A DNA stretch of 64,000 bases from a virus: the IMG/VR virus record IMGVR_UViG_3300027970_000019, positions 7,713-71,712 of that record; one strand, given 5' to 3'. The position numbers and the translations under genes were made by a program. Shown piece after piece: positions 12,392-18,791 of the stretch. Positions within the stretch are counted from its first letter, which is position 1. Every line of letters starts with the position of its first letter. The notes beneath the pieces were generated by a model. That model was not told where the DNA came from, made no database searches, and saw only the letters and a list, made by a program, of their open reading frames with translations.

Positions 12392-13795
12392 ATGAACTTC
12401 TTAGACGCATTACAAACAGAAGACACATTTACTGAAAATGGTATGGTTACAAATTCATCAACTCTTAATGAGTGTGTGAATTTATTCTTCACCATTGGAG
12501 CAATGAGAGGACAAGACAAACAAAGATTGTTGAGTAATTTCTCAAAGGCATTTAATGAAAATCCATTGACTGCGATGCGTATTCTATTTTGGTCAAGAGA
12601 TGTTCGTGGAGGTGCTGGTGAAAGACAAATATTCCGTGATATAATCCAATTCTTAGCAGAAACGGATTCAGAAGTATTGGCAAAGAACATTAAGTTCATC
12701 CCAGAATTCGGTCGTTGGGACGATTTAACTGTCCTATTCAACACCAAAGTGAATAACGATGCGATGGCGACAATAATCCAGGGATTAGAATCCCGTAATG
12801 GATTGTGTGCAAAGTGGATGCCAAGAAAAGGGGTTATATTTAACTCCATCAGAAAGGCTATGGGTCTGACACCAAAATCTTTACGTAAAATGTTGGTTGA
12901 ACTTTCCAACACCGTAGAACAAAAGATGTGTGCAAATGAGTGGTCAAATATTGAATACTCTAAACTACCATCTTTATCTATGGGAAGATATTCAAAAGCG
13001 TTTCCAAAACACGATAGTCTTGGGTTTGGTCAATATATTCTCGCCCTTAAAAATGGTGAGACTAAGGTAAATGCAAGTGCAGTTTATCCTTATGATGTTG
13101 TCAAAACCTTGAACTTAGGTAATAGAGAATTAGCTATTGAACAATGGAAAGCTCTTCCAAATTTTATGGAAGGATGTACCGAAAGAATACTACCTGTTGT
13201 GGATGTTTCAGGATCTATGATTAGCAGTGTTGGTGGAAACGCCAATGTTACTTGTATGGATGTTGCAATATCATTGGGATTGTATATTTCTGAGAGAAAT
13301 GAGGGTGTATTCAAAGATAGTTTTATTACTTTCTCTGAAAAACCTGAACTACAAAAACTAAGTGGTGATTTGTATCAAAGATATACACAACTTAGTCGTT
13401 CTGATTGGGGTATGAGTACAAACCTTGAGAAAGTGTTTAGAGTAATCCTTGGTCAGGCAGTGAAACATAATGTCTCTGAGAATGAAATGCCAACGAAAAT
13501 CCTTATCTTGTCTGATATGGAATTTAATCAAGCAACAAACCTACCTTTAACTGCAATGCAGATGATTCGTAGGGAGTACGAACAACACGGATACACTTTA
13601 CCTAGTATCGTTTATTGGAATATTCAATCAAGAAATAAGAACTTCCCAGTTCGTTTCGATGAAAAGGGAACATCATTGATTTCTGGTTTGAGTCCTGCAA
13701 TAATGAAATCAGTTTTGGTAGGAAATATTGATTCACCAGAATCAATTATGAATATCACGATTGACTCAGATAGATACAAGATGTTAGTAATCTAA
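12392..13795 (+). CDS. ROT/TROVE-like plus vWA protein (DUF2828-like, Ro60-related)
   Basis: TENG, RDVRGGAGER, GRWDDL, AKWMPR; vWA MIDAS VVDVSGSM; ILSDMEF; YWN. Confidence 0.85.
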   Translation: MNFLDALQTEDTFTENGMVTNSSTLNECVNLFFTIGAMRGQDKQRLLSNFSKAFNENPLTAMRILFWSRDVRGGAGERQIFRDIIQFLAETDSEVLAKNIKFIPEFGRWDDLTVLFNTKVNNDAMATIIQGLESRNGLCAKWMPRKGVIFNSIRKAMGLTPKSLRKMLVELSNTVEQKMCANEWSNIEYSKLPSLSMGRYSKAFPKHDSLGFGQYILALKNGETKVNASAVYPYDVVKTLNLGNRELAIEQWKALPNFMEGCTERILPVVDVSGSMISSVGGNANVTCMDVAISLGLYISERNEGVFKDSFITFSEKPELQKLSGDLYQRYTQLSRSDWGMSTNLEKVFRVILGQAVKHNVSENEMPTKILILSDMEFNQATNLPLTAMQMIRREYEQHGYTLPSIVYWNIQSRNKNFPVRFDEKGTSLISGLSPAIMKSVLVGNIDSPESIMNITIDSDRYKMLVI

Positions 13796-14892: not shown

Positions 14893-15681
14893 ATGAAAGA
14901 ACTATACAAAGGACACTACCAAAATGTTTTAAGAGGTCAAAAATTAGCAACTGAAGCTGCTAAGTTGAAATCTGATAAGGTAAAAGAAGAGTATAATAAA
15001 ACCCCTAATAAATGTACGAATTGTGGGAATGATTTGACTTATCCTCAAAGACATAACAAGTTTTGTTGTAGTTCTTGTGCCGCAAGTTTTAACAATAAAA
15101 ATAGAGGTGGACATAAGGAAGAAACTAAGATTAAAATTTCAAAGAAACTTGAGGGGAGAACTTTAAGTCCTGAACATAAAGAGAAGTCCATTAAATCCCT
15201 TCAACGAGTGGTCAAACAAAGACACGATGAGGGTTATGAAAGATTCTTAAACAAAAAGACAGGAAAAAATTGTGTTATATGTAACACAGAAATTACTTAC
15301 GAAAATAGATTTAGAAAAACTTGTTCAGATGAGTGTCAAATAAAAAGTAAAACAAACAGAAAATACTTGAATGGTAGTAGAAAAACAATAAACTACAATG
15401 GTATTATTTTGGAATCAAGTTGGGAATTAAAATTAGCAGAATGGTTGGATGAGTATAAGATTAAATGGATAAGACCAGAACCAATTAAATGGGTTTTAGA
15501 TGGTAAAAACAAACTTTATTATCCTGACTTTTATCTACCAGATTTCAACTTGTATCTAGATCCAAAAAATCCATATTGTATGGATAAGGATAGGGTGAAA
15601 ATGGAAATTGTATCAAAAGAAATTAATATTATTTTTGGCGATATTGATTATGTAATTACTAAATTAGGGGATGTGGTGTAA
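14893..15681 (+). CDS. free-standing homing endonuclease (Zn ribbon, NUMOD3, PD-(D/E)XK)
   Basis: CxxC pairs, HKEETKIKISKKL, SSWE...YYPDFYL...YLDPK; stop codon lies inside tRNA-Pro. Confidence 0.8.
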   Translation: MKELYKGHYQNVLRGQKLATEAAKLKSDKVKEEYNKTPNKCTNCGNDLTYPQRHNKFCCSSCAASFNNKNRGGHKEETKIKISKKLEGRTLSPEHKEKSIKSLQRVVKQRHDEGYERFLNKKTGKNCVICNTEITYENRFRKTCSDECQIKSKTNRKYLNGSRKTINYNGIILESSWELKLAEWLDEYKIKWIRPEPIKWVLDGKNKLYYPDFYLPDFNLYLDPKNPYCMDKDRVKMEIVSKEINIIFGDIDYVITKLGDVV

Positions 15682-15738
15682 CTCGGTTAGCATACTTCGT
15701 TTGGGACGAAGAGGAGGCGTTCAAATCGCACATCCCCA
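15667..15738 (+). tRNA. tRNA-Pro(TGG)
   Basis: GGGGATG/CATCCCC; cttcg-ttTGGga-cgaag; imperfect T stem. Confidence 0.8.
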
Positions 15739-15746
15739 ACACAATA

Positions 15747-15820
15747 GGTTTTATAGCTCAATTGGTTAGAGCTTTCCGCTCATAACGGAGGGGTTCCAGG
15801 TTCGAGTCCTGGTAGAACCA
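15747..15820 (+). tRNA. tRNA(CAT), likely Ile2
   Basis: GGTTTTA/TAGAACC; ctCATaa loop; body resembles Ile2 tRNAs (TAGCTCAATTGGTTAGAGC). Confidence 0.8.
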
Positions 15821-15903
15821 CAAAAAAATATTCAACACTTGAAACTTTTTATTCTTTGGTGTGGTTTATATAATTGAAGTTTGAATCATAAAAAAATAAC
15901 ACT

Positions 15904-16158
15904 ATGTACAGCACACAATTAATTTACACTAAAGAAGTTATTAAATATTTCAAAGATGGTGTTGAAGTTACACCAGAAACATATAATGAAAAATTGTTTT
16001 TTACTTTATATGGTGAAACTAAAGTTATAAAAACTGAAAAGATAGTGGAAGAATGGAAAGTGAAAACAAAAAAAGAGGTTAATTTAAAATTCAATAATTG
16101 GATTAACGAAAACAATGTGAGTATAAGTGATTACCACCTTGTTTATGTAAATAAATAA
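15904..16158 (+). CDS. hypothetical protein
   Basis: ORF track; GAAAC-N17-GGTT motif upstream. Confidence 0.6.
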   Translation: MYSTQLIYTKEVIKYFKDGVEVTPETYNEKLFFTLYGETKVIKTEKIVEEWKVKTKKEVNLKFNNWINENNVSISDYHLVYVNK

Positions 16159-16182
16159 AGTTCTGTCACCCATACAATAATA

Positions 16183-16259
16183 CGGCAAGTATACCCTCGT
16201 GCTGATACCACGTAGAAAGGTTAATTGGTTACATATAGGTTCGATTCCTATCTTGCCGA
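16183..16259 (+). tRNA. non-canonical tRNA-Ile(GAT)-like RNA lacking a D-arm
   Basis: CGGCAAG/CTTGCCG-A, perfect T arm, CGTG-ctGATac-CACG, D-loop-like AATTGGTTA placed after anticodon arm. Confidence 0.6.
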
Positions 16260-16321
16260 CATAGATTAAAAGTCAATTGTTCGAATGTGATATATTTATA
16301 TATAATAAAATATTACATAAA

Positions 16322-16939
16322 ATGAAAAGTTGTGAAAATTGTAGTTTAGAACACGATGGTACATATGGTTCTGGTAGATTTTGTTGTTCAAAGTGTGCTA
16401 GAAGTTTCAGTACTAAAAATAAAAGAAATGAGATTAATCGAAAGGTTTCGAAATCACTTGCTGGCAGGGGACATGGAAAAATAAAATTAATTTGTGAAAA
16501 TTGTAAAAATCAATTTGAAGTTAATTGGACTAAACGAAATCAAAAGACGTGTTCATTTAGTTGTAGTTCTTCACTTAAATGGGAAAACGAAGATTATAAA
16601 AGAAAGATGTCTATCATTAATTCAAATAATGCTTATGAAAGACATAAAAATGATGATAAAACTTTTGGTTGGAAAACTAGGAAAAAGTTAGAACCATCTT
16701 ACCCCGAAAAGGTGGCTATGAGAGTTTTAGATTCTTTAAATATTCAATACGAATATGAAATGCCATTAGAAAGATATTATGTTGACTTTGCAATACACGA
16801 TAGAAAAATTGCTATCGAAATAGATGGTAAACAACATGATAAGCCTGAACGAATCATAACTGATAAACTTAAAGATAAACTTTTGATTAAAAATGGGTGG
16901 GATTTTTCTTTTAAAATTTTCAACCGAAATGTTAATTAG
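16322..16939 (+). CDS. homing endonuclease, Vsr/DUF559-like, C-terminus disrupted
   Basis: Zn ribbons; SYPE...YYVDFAI...IEIDGKQH...D..L...GW then abrupt unrelated tail. Confidence 0.75.
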   Translation: MKSCENCSLEHDGTYGSGRFCCSKCARSFSTKNKRNEINRKVSKSLAGRGHGKIKLICENCKNQFEVNWTKRNQKTCSFSCSSSLKWENEDYKRKMSIINSNNAYERHKNDDKTFGWKTRKKLEPSYPEKVAMRVLDSLNIQYEYEMPLERYYVDFAIHDRKIAIEIDGKQHDKPERIITDKLKDKLLIKNGWDFSFKIFNRNVN

Positions 16940-17118: not shown

Positions 17119-17877
17119 ATGGAAGAACTTAAAATTTGGCTTGAAGGTTTTATTAGCCATACTGAAAAGAAAATTGAAAATATGAAACGAGTTGTTCCAG
17201 ATCATAGGAACATTAAAAGATTTGAAGGTGAAGTTAGTATGGCTAAGAAAAATCAAGACGTAAAATTTGCTGTTGACTTAAAAACAACTTACAGGAAGAA
17301 AAGCGGAGTTTCTAGTTTTACTTTGGGAAGTCACGGAAGTTATTTCAAAGAAAGGGACAAAAAGAAAAATATTCAGTTTCCCTACAATCAATATTTAGCA
17401 CATTTTTGTTTGGGTGTAATTTACACAAGAACAGACTTGGCTGATGATGCTTCTGAAACAGAAATTTATCAAGTTCAAGAACTTCAAGAAGAATACGAAA
17501 CGCCTAACCAAAAAGTAGGAGAAAGAGAAGTAGCAACCGTTAAAAATTTAAAATCAATTACATCAGTGATTAAAGATTTTGACTTTTTTGTCGCAGAGAA
17601 ATGGAAAATTGCGAGTGACAAACAAGGTTTGGGAAATACTGCAAATATCGGTGCTACACTTAGCATTGACGATTTAAGAAGTGAAAATGGAATTTTTAGC
17701 CAACTAGGTGAAGAATGGTTTGATGAATATTGGATAAATCACGGTTCTGCAACAATGGTAAAAGATGGTAAGCCAACAAAAATTACCACTCTTAAAGACT
17801 TTTTAGAATTTAAAGGTAGGACAGACTTATGGGATAAGATAGTAAAGTGTTCAACTTTAAAAAAGGATGCCGAATGA
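17119..17877 (+). CDS. chimeric, N-truncated EcoRV-family restriction endonuclease
   Basis: KFAVDLKTTY...FTLGSHGSYF...KNIQFPYNQYLAHFCLGVIYTR matches EcoRV; the upstream PD motif is missing. Confidence 0.8.
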   Translation: MEELKIWLEGFISHTEKKIENMKRVVPDHRNIKRFEGEVSMAKKNQDVKFAVDLKTTYRKKSGVSSFTLGSHGSYFKERDKKKNIQFPYNQYLAHFCLGVIYTRTDLADDASETEIYQVQELQEEYETPNQKVGEREVATVKNLKSITSVIKDFDFFVAEKWKIASDKQGLGNTANIGATLSIDDLRSENGIFSQLGEEWFDEYWINHGSATMVKDGKPTKITTLKDFLEFKGRTDLWDKIVKCSTLKKDAE

Positions 17878-18791
17878 AAGTAATTGTTCCACCAATAAAA
17901 AGTCAGGGCATAAAAACCAAGCTAGTTCCTTGGATTATGGAACTTGCACCAAAGGTTCAAGGTAAATGGATAGAACCATTTCTTGGAACTGGTGTAGTTG
18001 CGTTTAATTCGGGTTACAAAAAAGCGATTTTAAACGATACAAATCCTCATATTATCAATTTTTATAAAGGTATTCAGGCAAAAGAAATTACTGCACCTTT
18101 GATGAAACACTATCTTGAACAAGAAGGAGCGATTTTAAGTGAAGCCGACAATAATGGTTATGAGCATTATTTAAAAGTTCGTTCTCGTTTCAATGCTGGA
18201 GAATTTTCACCTTACGATTTTATTTTCCTTTCAAGAGCAGGATTTAATGGAATGATGAGATTTAACAACAAAGGTCATTGGAATATTCCATTCTGTAAAA
18301 AACCAGAACGTTTTGCTCAAGCATACGTGACAAAAATCACAAATCAAGTTGCAACGGTTTCTCAAATCATTCAAACTGAGCCTGACTGGACTTTTCACAA
18401 CAAATCATTTGCTGACATAATACCTTTAGCTACTGAAAACGACATTATTTATTGCGACCCACCATATTACGGCAGACACGTTGACTATTTTAACGGTTGG
18501 ACAGAACAAGACGAAGAACTTCTATTCAATTTATTAAGTGAAACAAAAGCAAAATTTATTCTTTCAACTTGGCATCATAACGACTGGCGACAAAATGAAA
18601 TGATTGAAAAATTTTGGAGTAAATTTAATGTAGTCACAAAAGACCATTTTTATCATAATGGCGGTAGTATTGAAAATAGACGGACAGTTGTTGAAGCATT
18701 AGTCTGCAACTTTAATACAGACCATTTTGACCAACACAATCACGGTCAGAAAGAAAAAATAAAATTATATGACGAATGTAAAAATTGGTGA
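17874..18791 (+). CDS. Dam-family N6-adenine methyltransferase (M.EcoRV-like)
   Basis: PPIKSQGIKTKL, EPFLGTGVV, FNGMMRFN, YCDPPY. Confidence 0.92.
   Translation: MKVIVPPIKSQGIKTKLVPWIMELAPKVQGKWIEPFLGTGVVAFNSGYKKAILNDTNPHIINFYKGIQAKEITAPLMKHYLEQEGAILSEADNNGYEHYLKVRSRFNAGEFSPYDFIFLSRAGFNGMMRFNNKGHWNIPFCKKPERFAQAYVTKITNQVATVSQIIQTEPDWTFHNKSFADIIPLATENDIIYCDPPYYGRHVDYFNGWTEQDEELLFNLLSETKAKFILSTWHHNDWRQNEMIEKFWSKFNVVTKDHFYHNGGSIENRRTVVEALVCNFNTDHFDQHNHGQKEKIKLYDECKNW

What the first reader, a model, noticed from the sequence alone, without database searches (positions are those of the whole stretch)
16183..16259. Rewired tRNA-Ile(GAU): D-loop sequence placed after the anticodon arm
Seen: perfect acceptor and T arms, but the 5' strand runs into one extended helix (ACC/GGT, CT/AG, CGTG/CACG) capped by CT-GAT-AC. 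A D-loop-like linker TAATTGGTTA then precedes the T arm. Inference: an alternative topology that can still give an L-shape. Leader 1 contains ATT/ATC codons and no other Ile(GAU) gene is visible in the window, which supports a decoding role.
Basis: partly seen in the sequence, partly recalled or inferred. Interest (0 to 1): 0.78.

Follow-up and report, generated by a model that had tools for sequence, protein, structure and literature searches.

The report
Rewired non-cloverleaf phage isoleucine tRNA
This 77-base gene in a lake phage is very probably a working isoleucine tRNA whose D-arm pieces lie on either side of the anticodon arm instead of before it, a layout shared by many phages and not described in the papers I could search.

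Summary
Window 16183-16259 (+) has a perfect 7-bp acceptor stem and T arm. It has a GAU anticodon loop and no D hairpin. A 3-bp helix (ACC/GGT) encloses the anticodon arm, and a D-loop-like TAATTGGTT follows it.

ARAGORN misses the gene. Rfam's tRNA model scores it 29.2 bits, against a cut-off of 29.

It belongs to a large family in phage tRNA arrays, including cultured Streptomyces and Microbacterium phages, where it is mostly unannotated.
- **Covariation:** in 46 aligned relatives all four helices covary. The odd helix is paired in 138 of 138 cells, with changes on both sides at all three pairs. A 15-48-type tertiary pair also covaries.
- **Identity:** family anticodons are only Ile (GAU, UAU, CAU) or Arg. 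Arg-type members carry A after the loop GG, as canonical tRNA-Arg does; Ile-type members almost never do.
- **Gap filling:** in three rich arrays, one in a CheckV-complete 207-kb phage, Ile is the only amino acid the finder misses, and a rewired GAU gene sits there.

Best reading (0.8): a functional, L-shaped tRNA-Ile with permuted D-arm wiring. Expression and charging are not shown.

Six literature searches found no description. This scan has noted the same family before on other DNA (eight notes).

The parts
16183..16189 (+). Acceptor stem, 5' strand (tRNA positions 1-7)
   Evidence: Forms 7 of 7 Watson-Crick pairs with 16252-16258. All 7 pairs show changes on both sides among 46 relatives, with 97.8% of cells paired.
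16190..16192 (+). Connector T-A-T. The first two bases correspond to U8 and A9.
   Evidence: T8 and A9 are invariant in 46 and in 68 aligned relatives.
16193..16195 (+). ACC, the 5' strand of the D-stem-equivalent helix. In my mapping it takes the place of canonical positions 23-25.
   Evidence: Pairs with GGT at 16219-16221. In 46 relatives 138 of 138 cells are paired, and the pair types are CG25/AU18/UA3, CG28/GC9/AU4/UA4/UG1 and CG37/GC8/AU1. RNAalifold predicts the helix independently.
16196..16196 (+). C that pairs with G at 16215, a 26-44-like layer between the two helices
   Evidence: C-G in 44 of 46 relatives and in 67 of 68. The pair never varies, so conservation supports it but covariation does not.
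16197..16213 (+). Anticodon arm: a U.U layer plus a 4-bp stem (16198-16201 with 16209-16212), the loop CTGATAC (16202-16208) and the anticodon GAT (16204-16206)
   Evidence: All four stem pairs show changes on both sides. In the loop, T21 (U33) is invariant in both alignments. C20 (C32) is invariant and nearly invariant. A25 (A37) is nearly invariant and invariant.
16214..16218 (+). A-G-A-A-A: one bulged base, the G that pairs with C16196, and three unpaired A
   Evidence: The last two A are invariant in 46 relatives; G and all three A are invariant in 68 relatives. A role in base triples with the 3-bp helix is inference.
16219..16221 (+). GGT, the 3' strand of the D-stem-equivalent helix. In my mapping it takes the place of canonical positions 10-12.
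   Evidence: See 16193-16195.
16222..16230 (+). D-loop equivalent TAATTGGTT. In my mapping these are A14, A15, G18, G19 and U20.
   Evidence: T, A and GG are invariant. The second A covaries with T16234 as a 15-48-type pair: AU35/GC8/other3 in 46 relatives and AU48/GC17/GU1/other2 in 68. The base after GG tracks the anticodon's amino acid as position 20 does in canonical tRNAs.
16231..16234 (+). Linker ACAT; its last base is the Y48 equivalent
   Evidence: The A of the CA step is invariant and the C nearly invariant. The last base covaries with 16224.
16235..16251 (+). T arm: a 5-bp stem and the loop TTCGATT
   Evidence: Three of the five pairs show changes on both sides and two never vary.
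16252..16259 (+). Acceptor stem 3' strand and discriminator A (16259). No CCA is encoded; the next bases are CAT.
   Evidence: All 53 Ile-type relatives and all 45 have A as discriminator. C follows the discriminator in 59 of 61 family genes.

Best explanation
The element is a gene for a functional elongator tRNA-Ile(GAU) with a non-cloverleaf secondary structure.

After U8-A9 the chain does not form a D hairpin.
- It runs as ACC straight into the anticodon arm.
- After the arm and a conserved G-A-A-A, the chain returns as GGT and pairs with ACC.
- This builds a 3-bp helix that stacks on the anticodon stem. I count about ten stacked layers, the same as anticodon stem + 26-44 + D stem in a normal tRNA.
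- The D-loop equivalent (A14, R15, G18, G19, N20) then follows this strand, as it follows positions 10-13 in a normal tRNA.
- A short linker ending in Y48 leads into a normal T arm.

The parts of the D arm are therefore all present but threaded in another order. The usual core contacts (U8-A14, R15-Y48, G18/G19 with the T loop) can still form an L shape.

Shown here: the pairings and their covariation, the conserved core bases, the link between anticodon and identity elements, and the position and gap-filling role in tRNA arrays.

Inferred: transcription with the array, end processing, CCA addition (none is encoded), charging by IleRS through the anticodon and A73, and reading of AUU/AUC. Those two codons make up 53 per 1000 codons of this window's long ORFs.

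Why the wiring differs is not known.
For: 1. **Covariation.**
- In 28 relatives 97.7% of cells are paired against 68.5% in shuffles, 17 of 20 pairs change on both sides, and 0 of 500 shuffles reach the score.
- In 46 relatives the figures are 97.8% against 64.7%. The non-canonical helix is paired in 138 of 138 cells, with changes on both sides at all 3 pairs.
- RNAalifold finds the same helices unaided.
- A later set of 67 sequences gives 98.1% against 63.3%. That set was selected for 3 of 3 pairs in the odd helix, so only its pair-type variety counts there.

2. **Core bases.** T8, A9, the TA and GG of the D-loop-like stretch and the T-loop bases are invariant. The 15-48-type pair covaries: AU35/GC8/other3 and AU48/GC17/GU1/other2.

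3. **Identity elements.**
- Among 60 distinct members, 53 have Ile anticodons (GAU, UAU, CAU) and all 53 have discriminator A. The other 7 have Arg anticodons.
- The base after the loop GG is A in 6 of 7 Arg-type members and in 1 of 53 Ile-type members (Fisher p about 1e-6).
- In a second set it is A in 22 of 22 Arg-type and 0 of 45 Ile-type members.
- Canonical tRNAs of the same loci follow the same rule: A in 54 of 64 tRNA-Arg, in 37 of 501 others, and T in 20 of 21 tRNA-Ile.

4. **Context.** Every relative scanned except L011 and L083 lies among ARAGORN-called tRNA genes.
- Of 12 loci whose ARAGORN calls cover at least 16 amino acids, 9 carry a rewired GAU gene. Eight of those 9 lack a canonical Ile(GAU) gene.
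- All 3 loci that carry only an Arg-type rewired gene have a canonical Ile(GAU) gene.
- In L184, L040 and L312, Ile is the only amino acid missing.
- L040 lies in a 207,029-bp record rated 100% complete. All 25 of its RF00005 matches fall at 70,707-76,445, inside the locus I scanned.

5. **Spread.** The covariance model R1 separates the family (62 matches at 42 bits or more) from canonical tRNAs (23 matches at 32.2 bits or less) in 485 kb. Members occur in 40 Streptomyces phage records, in Microbacterium phage A3Wally and in huge uncultured phages.

6. **Demand.** ATT is the fifth commonest codon of the window's long ORFs (658 of 15,375), and no other Ile tRNA is detected in the contig.
Against: - There is no direct evidence of transcription, processing, CCA addition or aminoacylation. 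The four runs I laid are assemblies, two of them probably DNA.
- Standard finders reject the gene or barely accept it.
- The single-sequence fold is not better than shuffles.
- The anticodon stem has only 4 Watson-Crick pairs plus a U.U layer, and the D-stem equivalent has only 3 pairs.
- In 11 of the 45 loci a canonical Ile(GAU) gene lies in the same locus, including cultured phage Jay2Jay. The rewired gene is therefore not always needed for decoding and could have another role there.
- The window's contig is about 24% complete, so a canonical tRNA-Ile may lie elsewhere in this phage.
- The L shape and the base-numbering map are my inference. No 3D model was made.
- The sequences are related, so shuffle controls overstate significance; the slid-partner control does not have this weakness.
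Confidence: 0.8

Rival explanations
1. A tRNA mimic that is not used in translation. It would act as a decoy or sponge for host tRNA-directed defence nucleases or for other tRNA-binding proteins, keeping a tRNA-Ile-like anticodon loop only as bait.
For: - It coexists with a canonical Ile(GAU) gene in 11 of 45 loci and in Jay2Jay.
- Phage tRNA arrays are discussed as counter-defence in papers whose listings, abstracts or one passage I saw.
- The window has other anticodon-less tRNA-like genes and a Ro-like gene nearby (note e1-6189564).
Against: - A decoy has no need for a discriminator and a position-20 base that switch with the anticodon exactly as aminoacylation identity rules require.
- It would not be expected to be the only Ile gene in otherwise complete arrays.
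- It would not need three Ile anticodons that cover all three Ile codons.
Confidence: 0.1
2. A D-armless, floppy tRNA of the mitochondrial kind with a long unstructured or hairpin variable region. This is how Rfam's model aligns it. It would have no D-loop/T-loop contact.
For: Rfam aligns it with the D arm deleted (4 nt in place of 15) and 18 nt inserted in the variable region. An engineered D-armless tRNA works in E. coli (PMC11551756, abstract and passages).
Against: - The ACC/GGT helix covaries at all three pairs.
- The supposed insert holds invariant A and GG bases and a covarying 15-48-type pair.
- A hairpin inside the insert is not supported: 47.8% of cells are paired against 49.3% in shuffles, and 488 of 500 shuffles do as well.
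Confidence: 0.05
3. A module of another RNA system in this island, for example a Y-RNA-like or regulatory tRNA-like element tied to the neighbouring Ro-like gene or to the proposed leader peptides.
For: A Ro-like gene (12392-13795; Pfam DUF7788 and DUF2828) and tRNA-like RNAs without an anticodon arm lie in the same island. Jay2Jay also has a gene annotated Ro.
Against: - The element has a full anticodon arm with a canonical 7-nt loop, unlike those RNAs.
- Relatives occur in many arrays where I saw no Ro gene.
- The Ile/Arg identity pattern has no meaning for such a role.
Confidence: 0.03
4. A decayed tRNA pseudogene that lost its D arm through a rearrangement.
For: It is missed by ARAGORN and sits at the Rfam cut-off. 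It lies next to a homing-type endonuclease ORF (16322-16939).
Against: The same layout is kept with compensatory changes in over a hundred distinct sequences from unrelated phages.
Confidence: 0.02

Closest known systems
Canonical class I elongator tRNA-Ile(GAU) of bacteria and phages (Rfam RF00005)
   Same: It has a 7-bp acceptor stem, a 5-bp T stem with a TTCRAWT loop, a 7-nt anticodon loop C-U-GAU-A-N and discriminator A. U8, A14, R15, G18, G19 and Y48 equivalents are present. It sits in tRNA arrays and has the same 3' trailer as its neighbours.
   Different: There is no D hairpin between position 9 and the anticodon arm. The two strands of the D-stem equivalent flank the anticodon arm, and the D loop lies 3' of it. 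The strand that carries the D loop is the 3' strand of the helix, not the 5' strand.
D-armless mitochondrial tRNAs, for example metazoan mt-tRNA-Ser(AGY) and nematode mt-tRNA-Ser (review PMC7609411, passages)
   Same: There is no D hairpin after the acceptor stem, and standard tools see a 'D arm deleted' tRNA.
   Different: As that review describes them, those tRNAs have lost the D arm and are flexible. Here the D-loop motif and a D-stem-like helix are kept and covary. The organisms are phages and a few bacterial genomes, not mitochondria.
Class II tRNAs with a long variable arm (Leu, Ser, Tyr; nev-tRNAs, PMC3333845, abstract seen)
   Same: There are extra nucleotides between the anticodon arm and the T arm.
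   Different: The extra stretch does not form its own hairpin. It pairs back to the 5' connector, and the normal D arm is absent.
allo-tRNAs and (8/4) tRNA-Ser/His of bacteria and phages (Mukai et al. 2016, PMC5389517, abstract and passages)
   Same: They are non-standard tRNA structures found by mining metagenomes, some in phage tRNA clusters.
   Different: Those change the acceptor/T split (8/4 or 9/3) but keep the cloverleaf order of arms. Here the split is 7/5 and the arm order is changed.
Engineered 'mini HisT', a D-arm-lacking tRNA accepted by E. coli HisRS, EF-Tu and the ribosome (Edelmann et al. 2024, PMC11551756, abstract and passages)
   Same: It shows that bacterial translation can use a tRNA without a normal D arm.
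   Different: It is artificial and simply lacks the arm. Its abstract states that all known bacterial tRNAs are cloverleaves, which the present natural family would qualify.
Circularly permuted tRNA genes of the red alga Cyanidioschyzon merolae (recalled from memory; no call)
   Same: The order of tRNA parts in the DNA is permuted.
   Different: As I recall, the permutation there is at the gene level and processing restores a normal cloverleaf RNA. Here the acceptor strands are at the two ends as usual, and the mature RNA itself would be non-cloverleaf.

Membership tests
tRNA (Rfam RF00005, canonical cloverleaf) | Score at or above the curated cut-off of the family model | tested here: inconclusive
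   The score is 29.2 bits against a cut-off of 29 in a 241-nt search and in the contig search. There is no match in the whole-window gathering scan, and ARAGORN makes no call.
tRNA (Rfam RF00005, canonical cloverleaf) | 7-bp acceptor stem, discriminator, and a 5-bp T stem with a T-loop motif | tested here: met
   7 of 7 and 5 of 5 pairs with loop TTCGATT; both stems covary.
tRNA (Rfam RF00005, canonical cloverleaf) | Anticodon arm with a 7-nt loop, U33 and a purine at 37 | tested here: met
   The loop is CTGATAC on a stem of 4 Watson-Crick pairs plus a U.U layer. The four stem pairs covary.
tRNA (Rfam RF00005, canonical cloverleaf) | D hairpin (stem 10-13 with 22-25 and its loop) between position 9 and the anticodon arm | tested here: not met
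   Only 5 nt lie between A9 and the anticodon arm, and Rfam aligns 4 nt in place of 15. The D-like strands flank the anticodon arm.
tRNA as a functional class (adaptor in translation) | Identity elements consistent with the anticodon | tested here: met
   All 53 plus 45 Ile-type members have A73. The position-20-like base is A in 6 of 7 and in 22 of 22 Arg-type members, and in 1 of 53 and 0 of 45 Ile-type members. Canonical tRNAs of the same loci behave the same way.
tRNA as a functional class (adaptor in translation) | Mature CCA end, aminoacylation and decoding | not testable with these tools
   No CCA is encoded. The runs available were assemblies.
D-armless mitochondrial-type tRNA | D arm replaced by a short unpaired connector, with no D-loop/T-loop contact | tested here: not met
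   A D-loop-like stretch with invariant A and GG and a covarying 15-48-type pair is present. The contact itself is inferred.
Class II tRNA (long variable arm) | Self-paired hairpin in the variable region, together with a normal D arm | tested here: not met
   The hairpin test gives 47.8% paired against 49.3% in shuffles, and there is no D arm.
allo-tRNA / (8/4) tRNA | 12-bp acceptor branch split 8/4 or 9/3 | tested here: not met
   The split is 7/5.
Rewired-D-arm tRNA family defined here (model R1) | A 3-bp helix enclosing the anticodon arm, then G-A-A-A, then a D-loop-like stretch, then the T arm | tested here: met
   The window scores 97.7 bits, but it was in the seed alignment, so this holds by construction. 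Members not in the seed score 42-99 bits, and canonical tRNAs 32.2 bits or less.

The most novel reading that the evidence does not exclude
These RNAs are the first natural class of non-cloverleaf tRNAs that work on bacterial ribosomes, and the rewiring is adaptive. On this reading it is a disguise: decoding, charging and the L shape are kept, but the D-arm/anticodon-stem surface that host tRNA-directed defence nucleases or modification enzymes dock on is changed. That would explain three things: the family is confined to two identities (Ile and Arg), it often sits beside a canonical copy with the same anticodon, and it has spread among unrelated phages of Actinobacteria, Bacteroidota and freshwater hosts.
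Probability: 0.25. Interest if true: 0.95.

Novelty: new variant of a known kind. Interest (0 to 1): 0.85.

Why it matters
Textbooks, and a 2024 paper's abstract (PMC11551756), hold that all tRNAs used by bacteria are cloverleaves. A conserved family in which the D-arm strands are threaded around the anticodon arm would show three things.
- The L shape, not the cloverleaf order, is what translation needs.
- There is a natural scaffold that may be orthogonal to some tRNA-binding enzymes.
- A class of genes is being missed by ARAGORN and left unannotated in deposited phage genomes. Of the 40 listed Streptomyces-phage rows, 37 have no feature there and two call it tRNA-Leu.

The family occurs in cultured phages of harmless laboratory hosts, so the claim can be tested directly.

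Tried and rejected
**Searches that found nothing or added nothing**
- Megablast of 6 kb around the element against GenBank phages found no match.
- The single-sequence fold has z = -0.77 and gives no support on its own.
- The promoter and terminator scan of 15500-16500 found 5 promoter-like sites against 5.9 expected, and no terminator. It is uninformative.

**Structural alternatives**
- A hairpin inside the 'variable' insert is rejected by the pair counts.
- I looked by eye for a canonical D arm using other registers and found none with four pairs.
- A reading in which an internal piece is removed as an intron gives no anticodon arm or no loop.

**Expression**
- The look-up of sequencing runs listed lake-water DNA runs and a few RNA-labelled runs.
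- The four runs I laid (X15-X18) are assemblies, and the tool marks X15 and X16 as probably DNA.
- One X17 contig covers 16165-16400 with no listed difference inside the element.
- Nothing can be said about transcription, RNA ends or CCA.

**Cellular genomes**
- The exact-pattern scan of 185,579 species' genomes gave 28 loci, and 17 of them hold true members.
- At least two of these are jumbo-phage contigs inside MAG bins, because their lengths equal those of IMG/VR records.
- An order-wide search around one isolate genome found the model in 1 of 151 genomes, the isolate itself. Only 31 candidates per genome were scored, so weak members could have been missed.
- I therefore do not claim that the family is a regular chromosomal gene of any bacterial group.

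**Ideas not pursued**
- The Y-RNA idea prompted by note e1-6189564 was dropped, because the element has a full anticodon arm.

**Rows dropped before counts**
- One search listed 44 distinct candidates. By eye I set aside 7 that were parts of ordinary tRNAs: L070, L074, L049, L038, L185:8842, L026:12187 and L155:2576-like calls.
- L092 has the same element sequence as the window and was represented by the window row.
- Subtype-B and longer variants (L012, L020:310, L040, L068, L083:4361, L093, L095, L112:11632, L075:5182, L075:5269, L149:872, L119) were left out of alignments A2 and A4, because their helix register differs by one base.
- In one search the 5'-cut L190 copy was mis-parsed as 'TAA'. 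I counted it as GAU from its loop.
- In one search, 7 of 74 candidates failed the filter. None failed only on the odd helix.

**Supplementary files** of the papers were not opened. They could hold tRNA lists that bear on novelty.
Full report
**What is in the window.** The window is bases 7713-71712 of a 71.7-kb IMG/VR virus record that CheckV rates about 24% complete. Its G+C content is about 30%. It carries 16 ARAGORN tRNA calls and a tmRNA.

- a 7-bp all-Watson-Crick acceptor stem with discriminator A;
- a 5-bp T stem with loop TTCGATT;
- a 7-nt loop CTGATAC (anticodon GAT) on a CGTG/CACG stem;
- ACC pairing with GGT around that arm;
- TAATTGGTT between GGT and the T arm.

There is no room for a D hairpin, because only five bases separate A9 from the anticodon arm. 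ARAGORN does not call the gene. Rfam's tRNA model misses it in the whole-window scan. In a small search and in the contig search it scores 29.2 bits against a cut-off of 29. That alignment deletes the D arm and treats 18 nt as an insertion in the variable region. The minimum-energy fold reproduces the long helix but is no better than shuffles (z = -0.77). The single sequence therefore settles nothing.

**Relatives.** I scanned IMG/VR for a D-loop-like octamer lying 5-12 nt before a T loop, a spacing impossible in a cloverleaf. The scan gave 100 loci, and 22 of them hold clear homologues (17 distinct sequences). All are 77-78 nt and all have 7 of 7 acceptor pairs. A second scan anchored on the GAU loop and the T loop added members with other D-loop-like sequences.

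I built a covariance model (R1) from 28 of them. In 485 kb of loci it separates 62 family matches (42-100 bits) from 23 canonical tRNAs (32.2 bits or less). The window holds one member only.

BLAST against GenBank phages found the gene in 40 Streptomyces phage records and in a 462-kb uncultured phage.
- In 37 of the 40 listed rows nothing is annotated under the match.
- Two rows, both for phage EGole, call it tRNA-Leu.
- Microbacterium phage A3Wally carries an unannotated Arg(ACG) member that scores 81.8 bits.

An exact-pattern scan of one genome per prokaryote species gave 28 loci, 17 of them with true members. At least two of those contigs have the same length as IMG/VR phage contigs. A sample of 151 genomes of one bacterial order held the model only in the query genome. 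The family is therefore mainly, perhaps wholly, phage-borne.

**Structure.** On 46 MAFFT-aligned subtype-A members, 97.8% of pair cells are standard pairs, against 64.7% after shuffling and 35-41% with partners slid by 1-3 columns. None of 500 shuffles reaches the observed covariation score.

The helix that a cloverleaf does not have, element positions 11-13 with 37-39, is paired in 138 of 138 cells. Its pair types are CG25/AU18/UA3, CG28/GC9/AU4/UA4/UG1 and CG37/GC8/AU1. RNAalifold predicts the same four helices without guidance. The 28-sequence seed gave the same picture.

A later set of 67 sequences from 89 new loci gives 98.1% against 63.3%. That set was selected for three pairs in the odd helix. 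Some of its rows repeat earlier sequences.

A hairpin inside the 'insert', as a class II reading would need, is not supported. The C-G pair next to the anticodon stem is conserved but never varies.

**Core.** T8, A9, the T-A and G-G of the D-loop-like stretch and the T-loop bases are invariant in both large alignments. The base after that T-A (A or G) covaries with the last base before the T stem (T or C). The counts are AU35/GC8/other3 and AU48/GC17/GU1/other2. This is the behaviour of the R15-Y48 tertiary pair of ordinary tRNAs; that comparison rests on established tRNA structure, not on a call.

My mapping follows from this. GGT plus the D-loop-like stretch corresponds to positions 10-12 plus 14-21 in their normal order. 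ACC takes the place of 23-25 and runs straight into the anticodon stem. The conserved G-A-A-A takes the place of the variable-loop bases. The stack then has about ten layers, as in anticodon stem + 26-44 + D stem. The L shape is an inference from these facts.

**Function.** Four lines of evidence point to a working adaptor.

1. Anticodon range. Among 60 distinct members, 53 have GAU, UAU or CAU and 7 have Arg anticodons. Among 67 further members, 45 are Ile-type and 22 Arg-type. No other amino acid was seen, although both sets come from patterns that fix parts of subtype A.
2. Identity elements switch with the anticodon. All 98 Ile-type members have discriminator A. The base after the loop GG is A in 28 of 29 Arg-type members and in 1 of 98 Ile-type members (A3Wally adds one more Arg-type with A). 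The canonical tRNAs of the same loci show the same rule: A in 54 of 64 tRNA-Arg, in 37 of 501 others, and T in 20 of 21 tRNA-Ile. That A20 is an ArgRS identity element is recalled knowledge. The in-session control shows only the correlation.
3. Gap filling.
   - Among 12 loci whose ARAGORN calls cover at least 16 amino acids, 8 of the 9 with a rewired GAU gene lack a canonical Ile(GAU) gene.
   - All 3 loci with only an Arg-type rewired gene have one.
   - In L184, L040 and L312 Ile is the only amino acid missing.
   - L040 belongs to a 207-kb record rated 100% complete. All of its tRNA matches lie inside the locus I scanned.
4. Gene context. The family genes share the 3' trailer of their neighbours. 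C follows the discriminator in 59 of 61 family genes, and the window's canonical tRNA calls end the same way. Close relatives of this phage carry a rewired UAU gene directly upstream of the rewired GAU gene. In the window's long ORFs ATT is the fifth commonest codon, and no other Ile tRNA is detected in the contig.

**Against.** Nothing shows the RNA itself.
- The runs that hold this DNA are lake-water assemblies, and the four I laid cannot show ends, strand or level.
- A canonical Ile(GAU) gene lies in the same locus in 11 of 45 loci and in Jay2Jay. The rewired copy is therefore sometimes redundant, which leaves room for a second role.
- The stems are short.
- The sequences are related, which inflates shuffle statistics.
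- The window's own genome is incomplete.

**Comparison with what is known.** The element works like a class I tRNA-Ile but fails one defining feature of the cloverleaf, the D hairpin.
- It is not a D-armless mitochondrial-type tRNA, because the D-loop motif and a D-stem-like helix are kept.
- It is not a class II tRNA.
- It is not an allo-tRNA, because its acceptor/T split is 7/5.

**Literature.** Six full-text searches listed no paper that describes this layout.
- I read passages of a 2020 review of non-canonical tRNAs, which never mentions phages (PMC7609411).
- I read passages of the allo-tRNA paper (PMC5389517).
- I read passages of a 2024 paper whose abstract says all known bacterial tRNAs are cloverleaves (PMC11551756).
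- I read one passage of a 2026 paper on mycobacterial tRNA arrays (PMC12803027).
- A 2023 paper on phage tRNAs held none of my terms (PMC10264068).
- Subscription journals and supplementary files were not covered.

**Earlier notes of this scan.** By the time I looked them up the analysis of the structure, the identity elements and the first arrays was done. Eight notes on other genomes describe the same family with the same reading. They are AI notes and not independent evidence. I list them, and I re-derived their shared claims here.

**Verdict.** The element is a member of a widespread, largely unannotated family of Ile and Arg tRNAs with permuted D-arm wiring. I found no description of it in print. 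It can be tested in cultured phages of harmless hosts.

Noticed in passing
L002 9971-10047(-); the same gene in L027, L059, L071 and L084: Close relatives of this phage carry a rewired tRNA-Ile(UAU) gene 14 nt upstream of the rewired GAU gene. The window lacks it and has an 84-aa ORF (15904-16158, no Pfam match) there instead.
   Followed up: partly
About 45 of the loci L001-L100, for example L008, L009 and L010: The same pattern scan hit a different tRNA family. It has a normal D arm, a UAU anticodon loop, a long variable region holding the same D-loop-like octamer, and an encoded CCA end. It may be allo-tRNA-like.
   Followed up: no
L004 2508-2591(-); similar 84-86-nt calls in L026, L044 and L190: This is an 84-nt tRNA-Ile(GAU) with a normal D arm and a long variable arm. 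It lies between a canonical Ile(UAU) gene and the rewired Ile(GAU) gene, so three Ile genes of three designs stand in a row.
   Followed up: no
L224 and L227 (also L225); genome contigs of Cytophagales-like MAGs: A rewired tRNA-Ile(UAU) gene sits outside any tRNA array, next to a tRNA-Arg(ACG) gene. It lies between an M41-peptidase-like ORF and a WYL/WCX/PhyH ORF, with the same synteny in two genomes.
   Followed up: partly
window 23975-24068, 24151-24243 and 25365-25468: Other odd tRNA-like genes are present. Two have 36-37 nt where the 17-nt anticodon arm should be. One 104-nt match scores 26.6 bits.
   Followed up: no
window 16322-16939, 17119-17877 and 17847-18791: A DUF559/Vsr-like endonuclease ORF lies directly downstream of the element. 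It is followed by an EcoRV-like restriction endonuclease and a Dam-class methyltransferase, all inside the tRNA island.
   Followed up: no
Streptomyces phage Jay2Jay, which also carries the rewired gene, likewise has a gene annotated Ro, a tmRNA and about 36 tRNA genes.
   Followed up: partly
L230/L288 and L238/L323: The contigs filed under a Paceibacterota MAG (362,763 bp) and a Firmicutes MAG (410,106 bp) have exactly the lengths of IMG/VR virus contigs that hold the same gene. They are probably jumbo-phage contigs binned into MAGs.
   Followed up: no
L101 960-1481 (Jay2Jay gene 110): In Jay2Jay the rewired gene lies 14 nt downstream of a gene annotated nucleotidyltransferase. I did not test whether this is a CCA-adding enzyme.
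   Followed up: no
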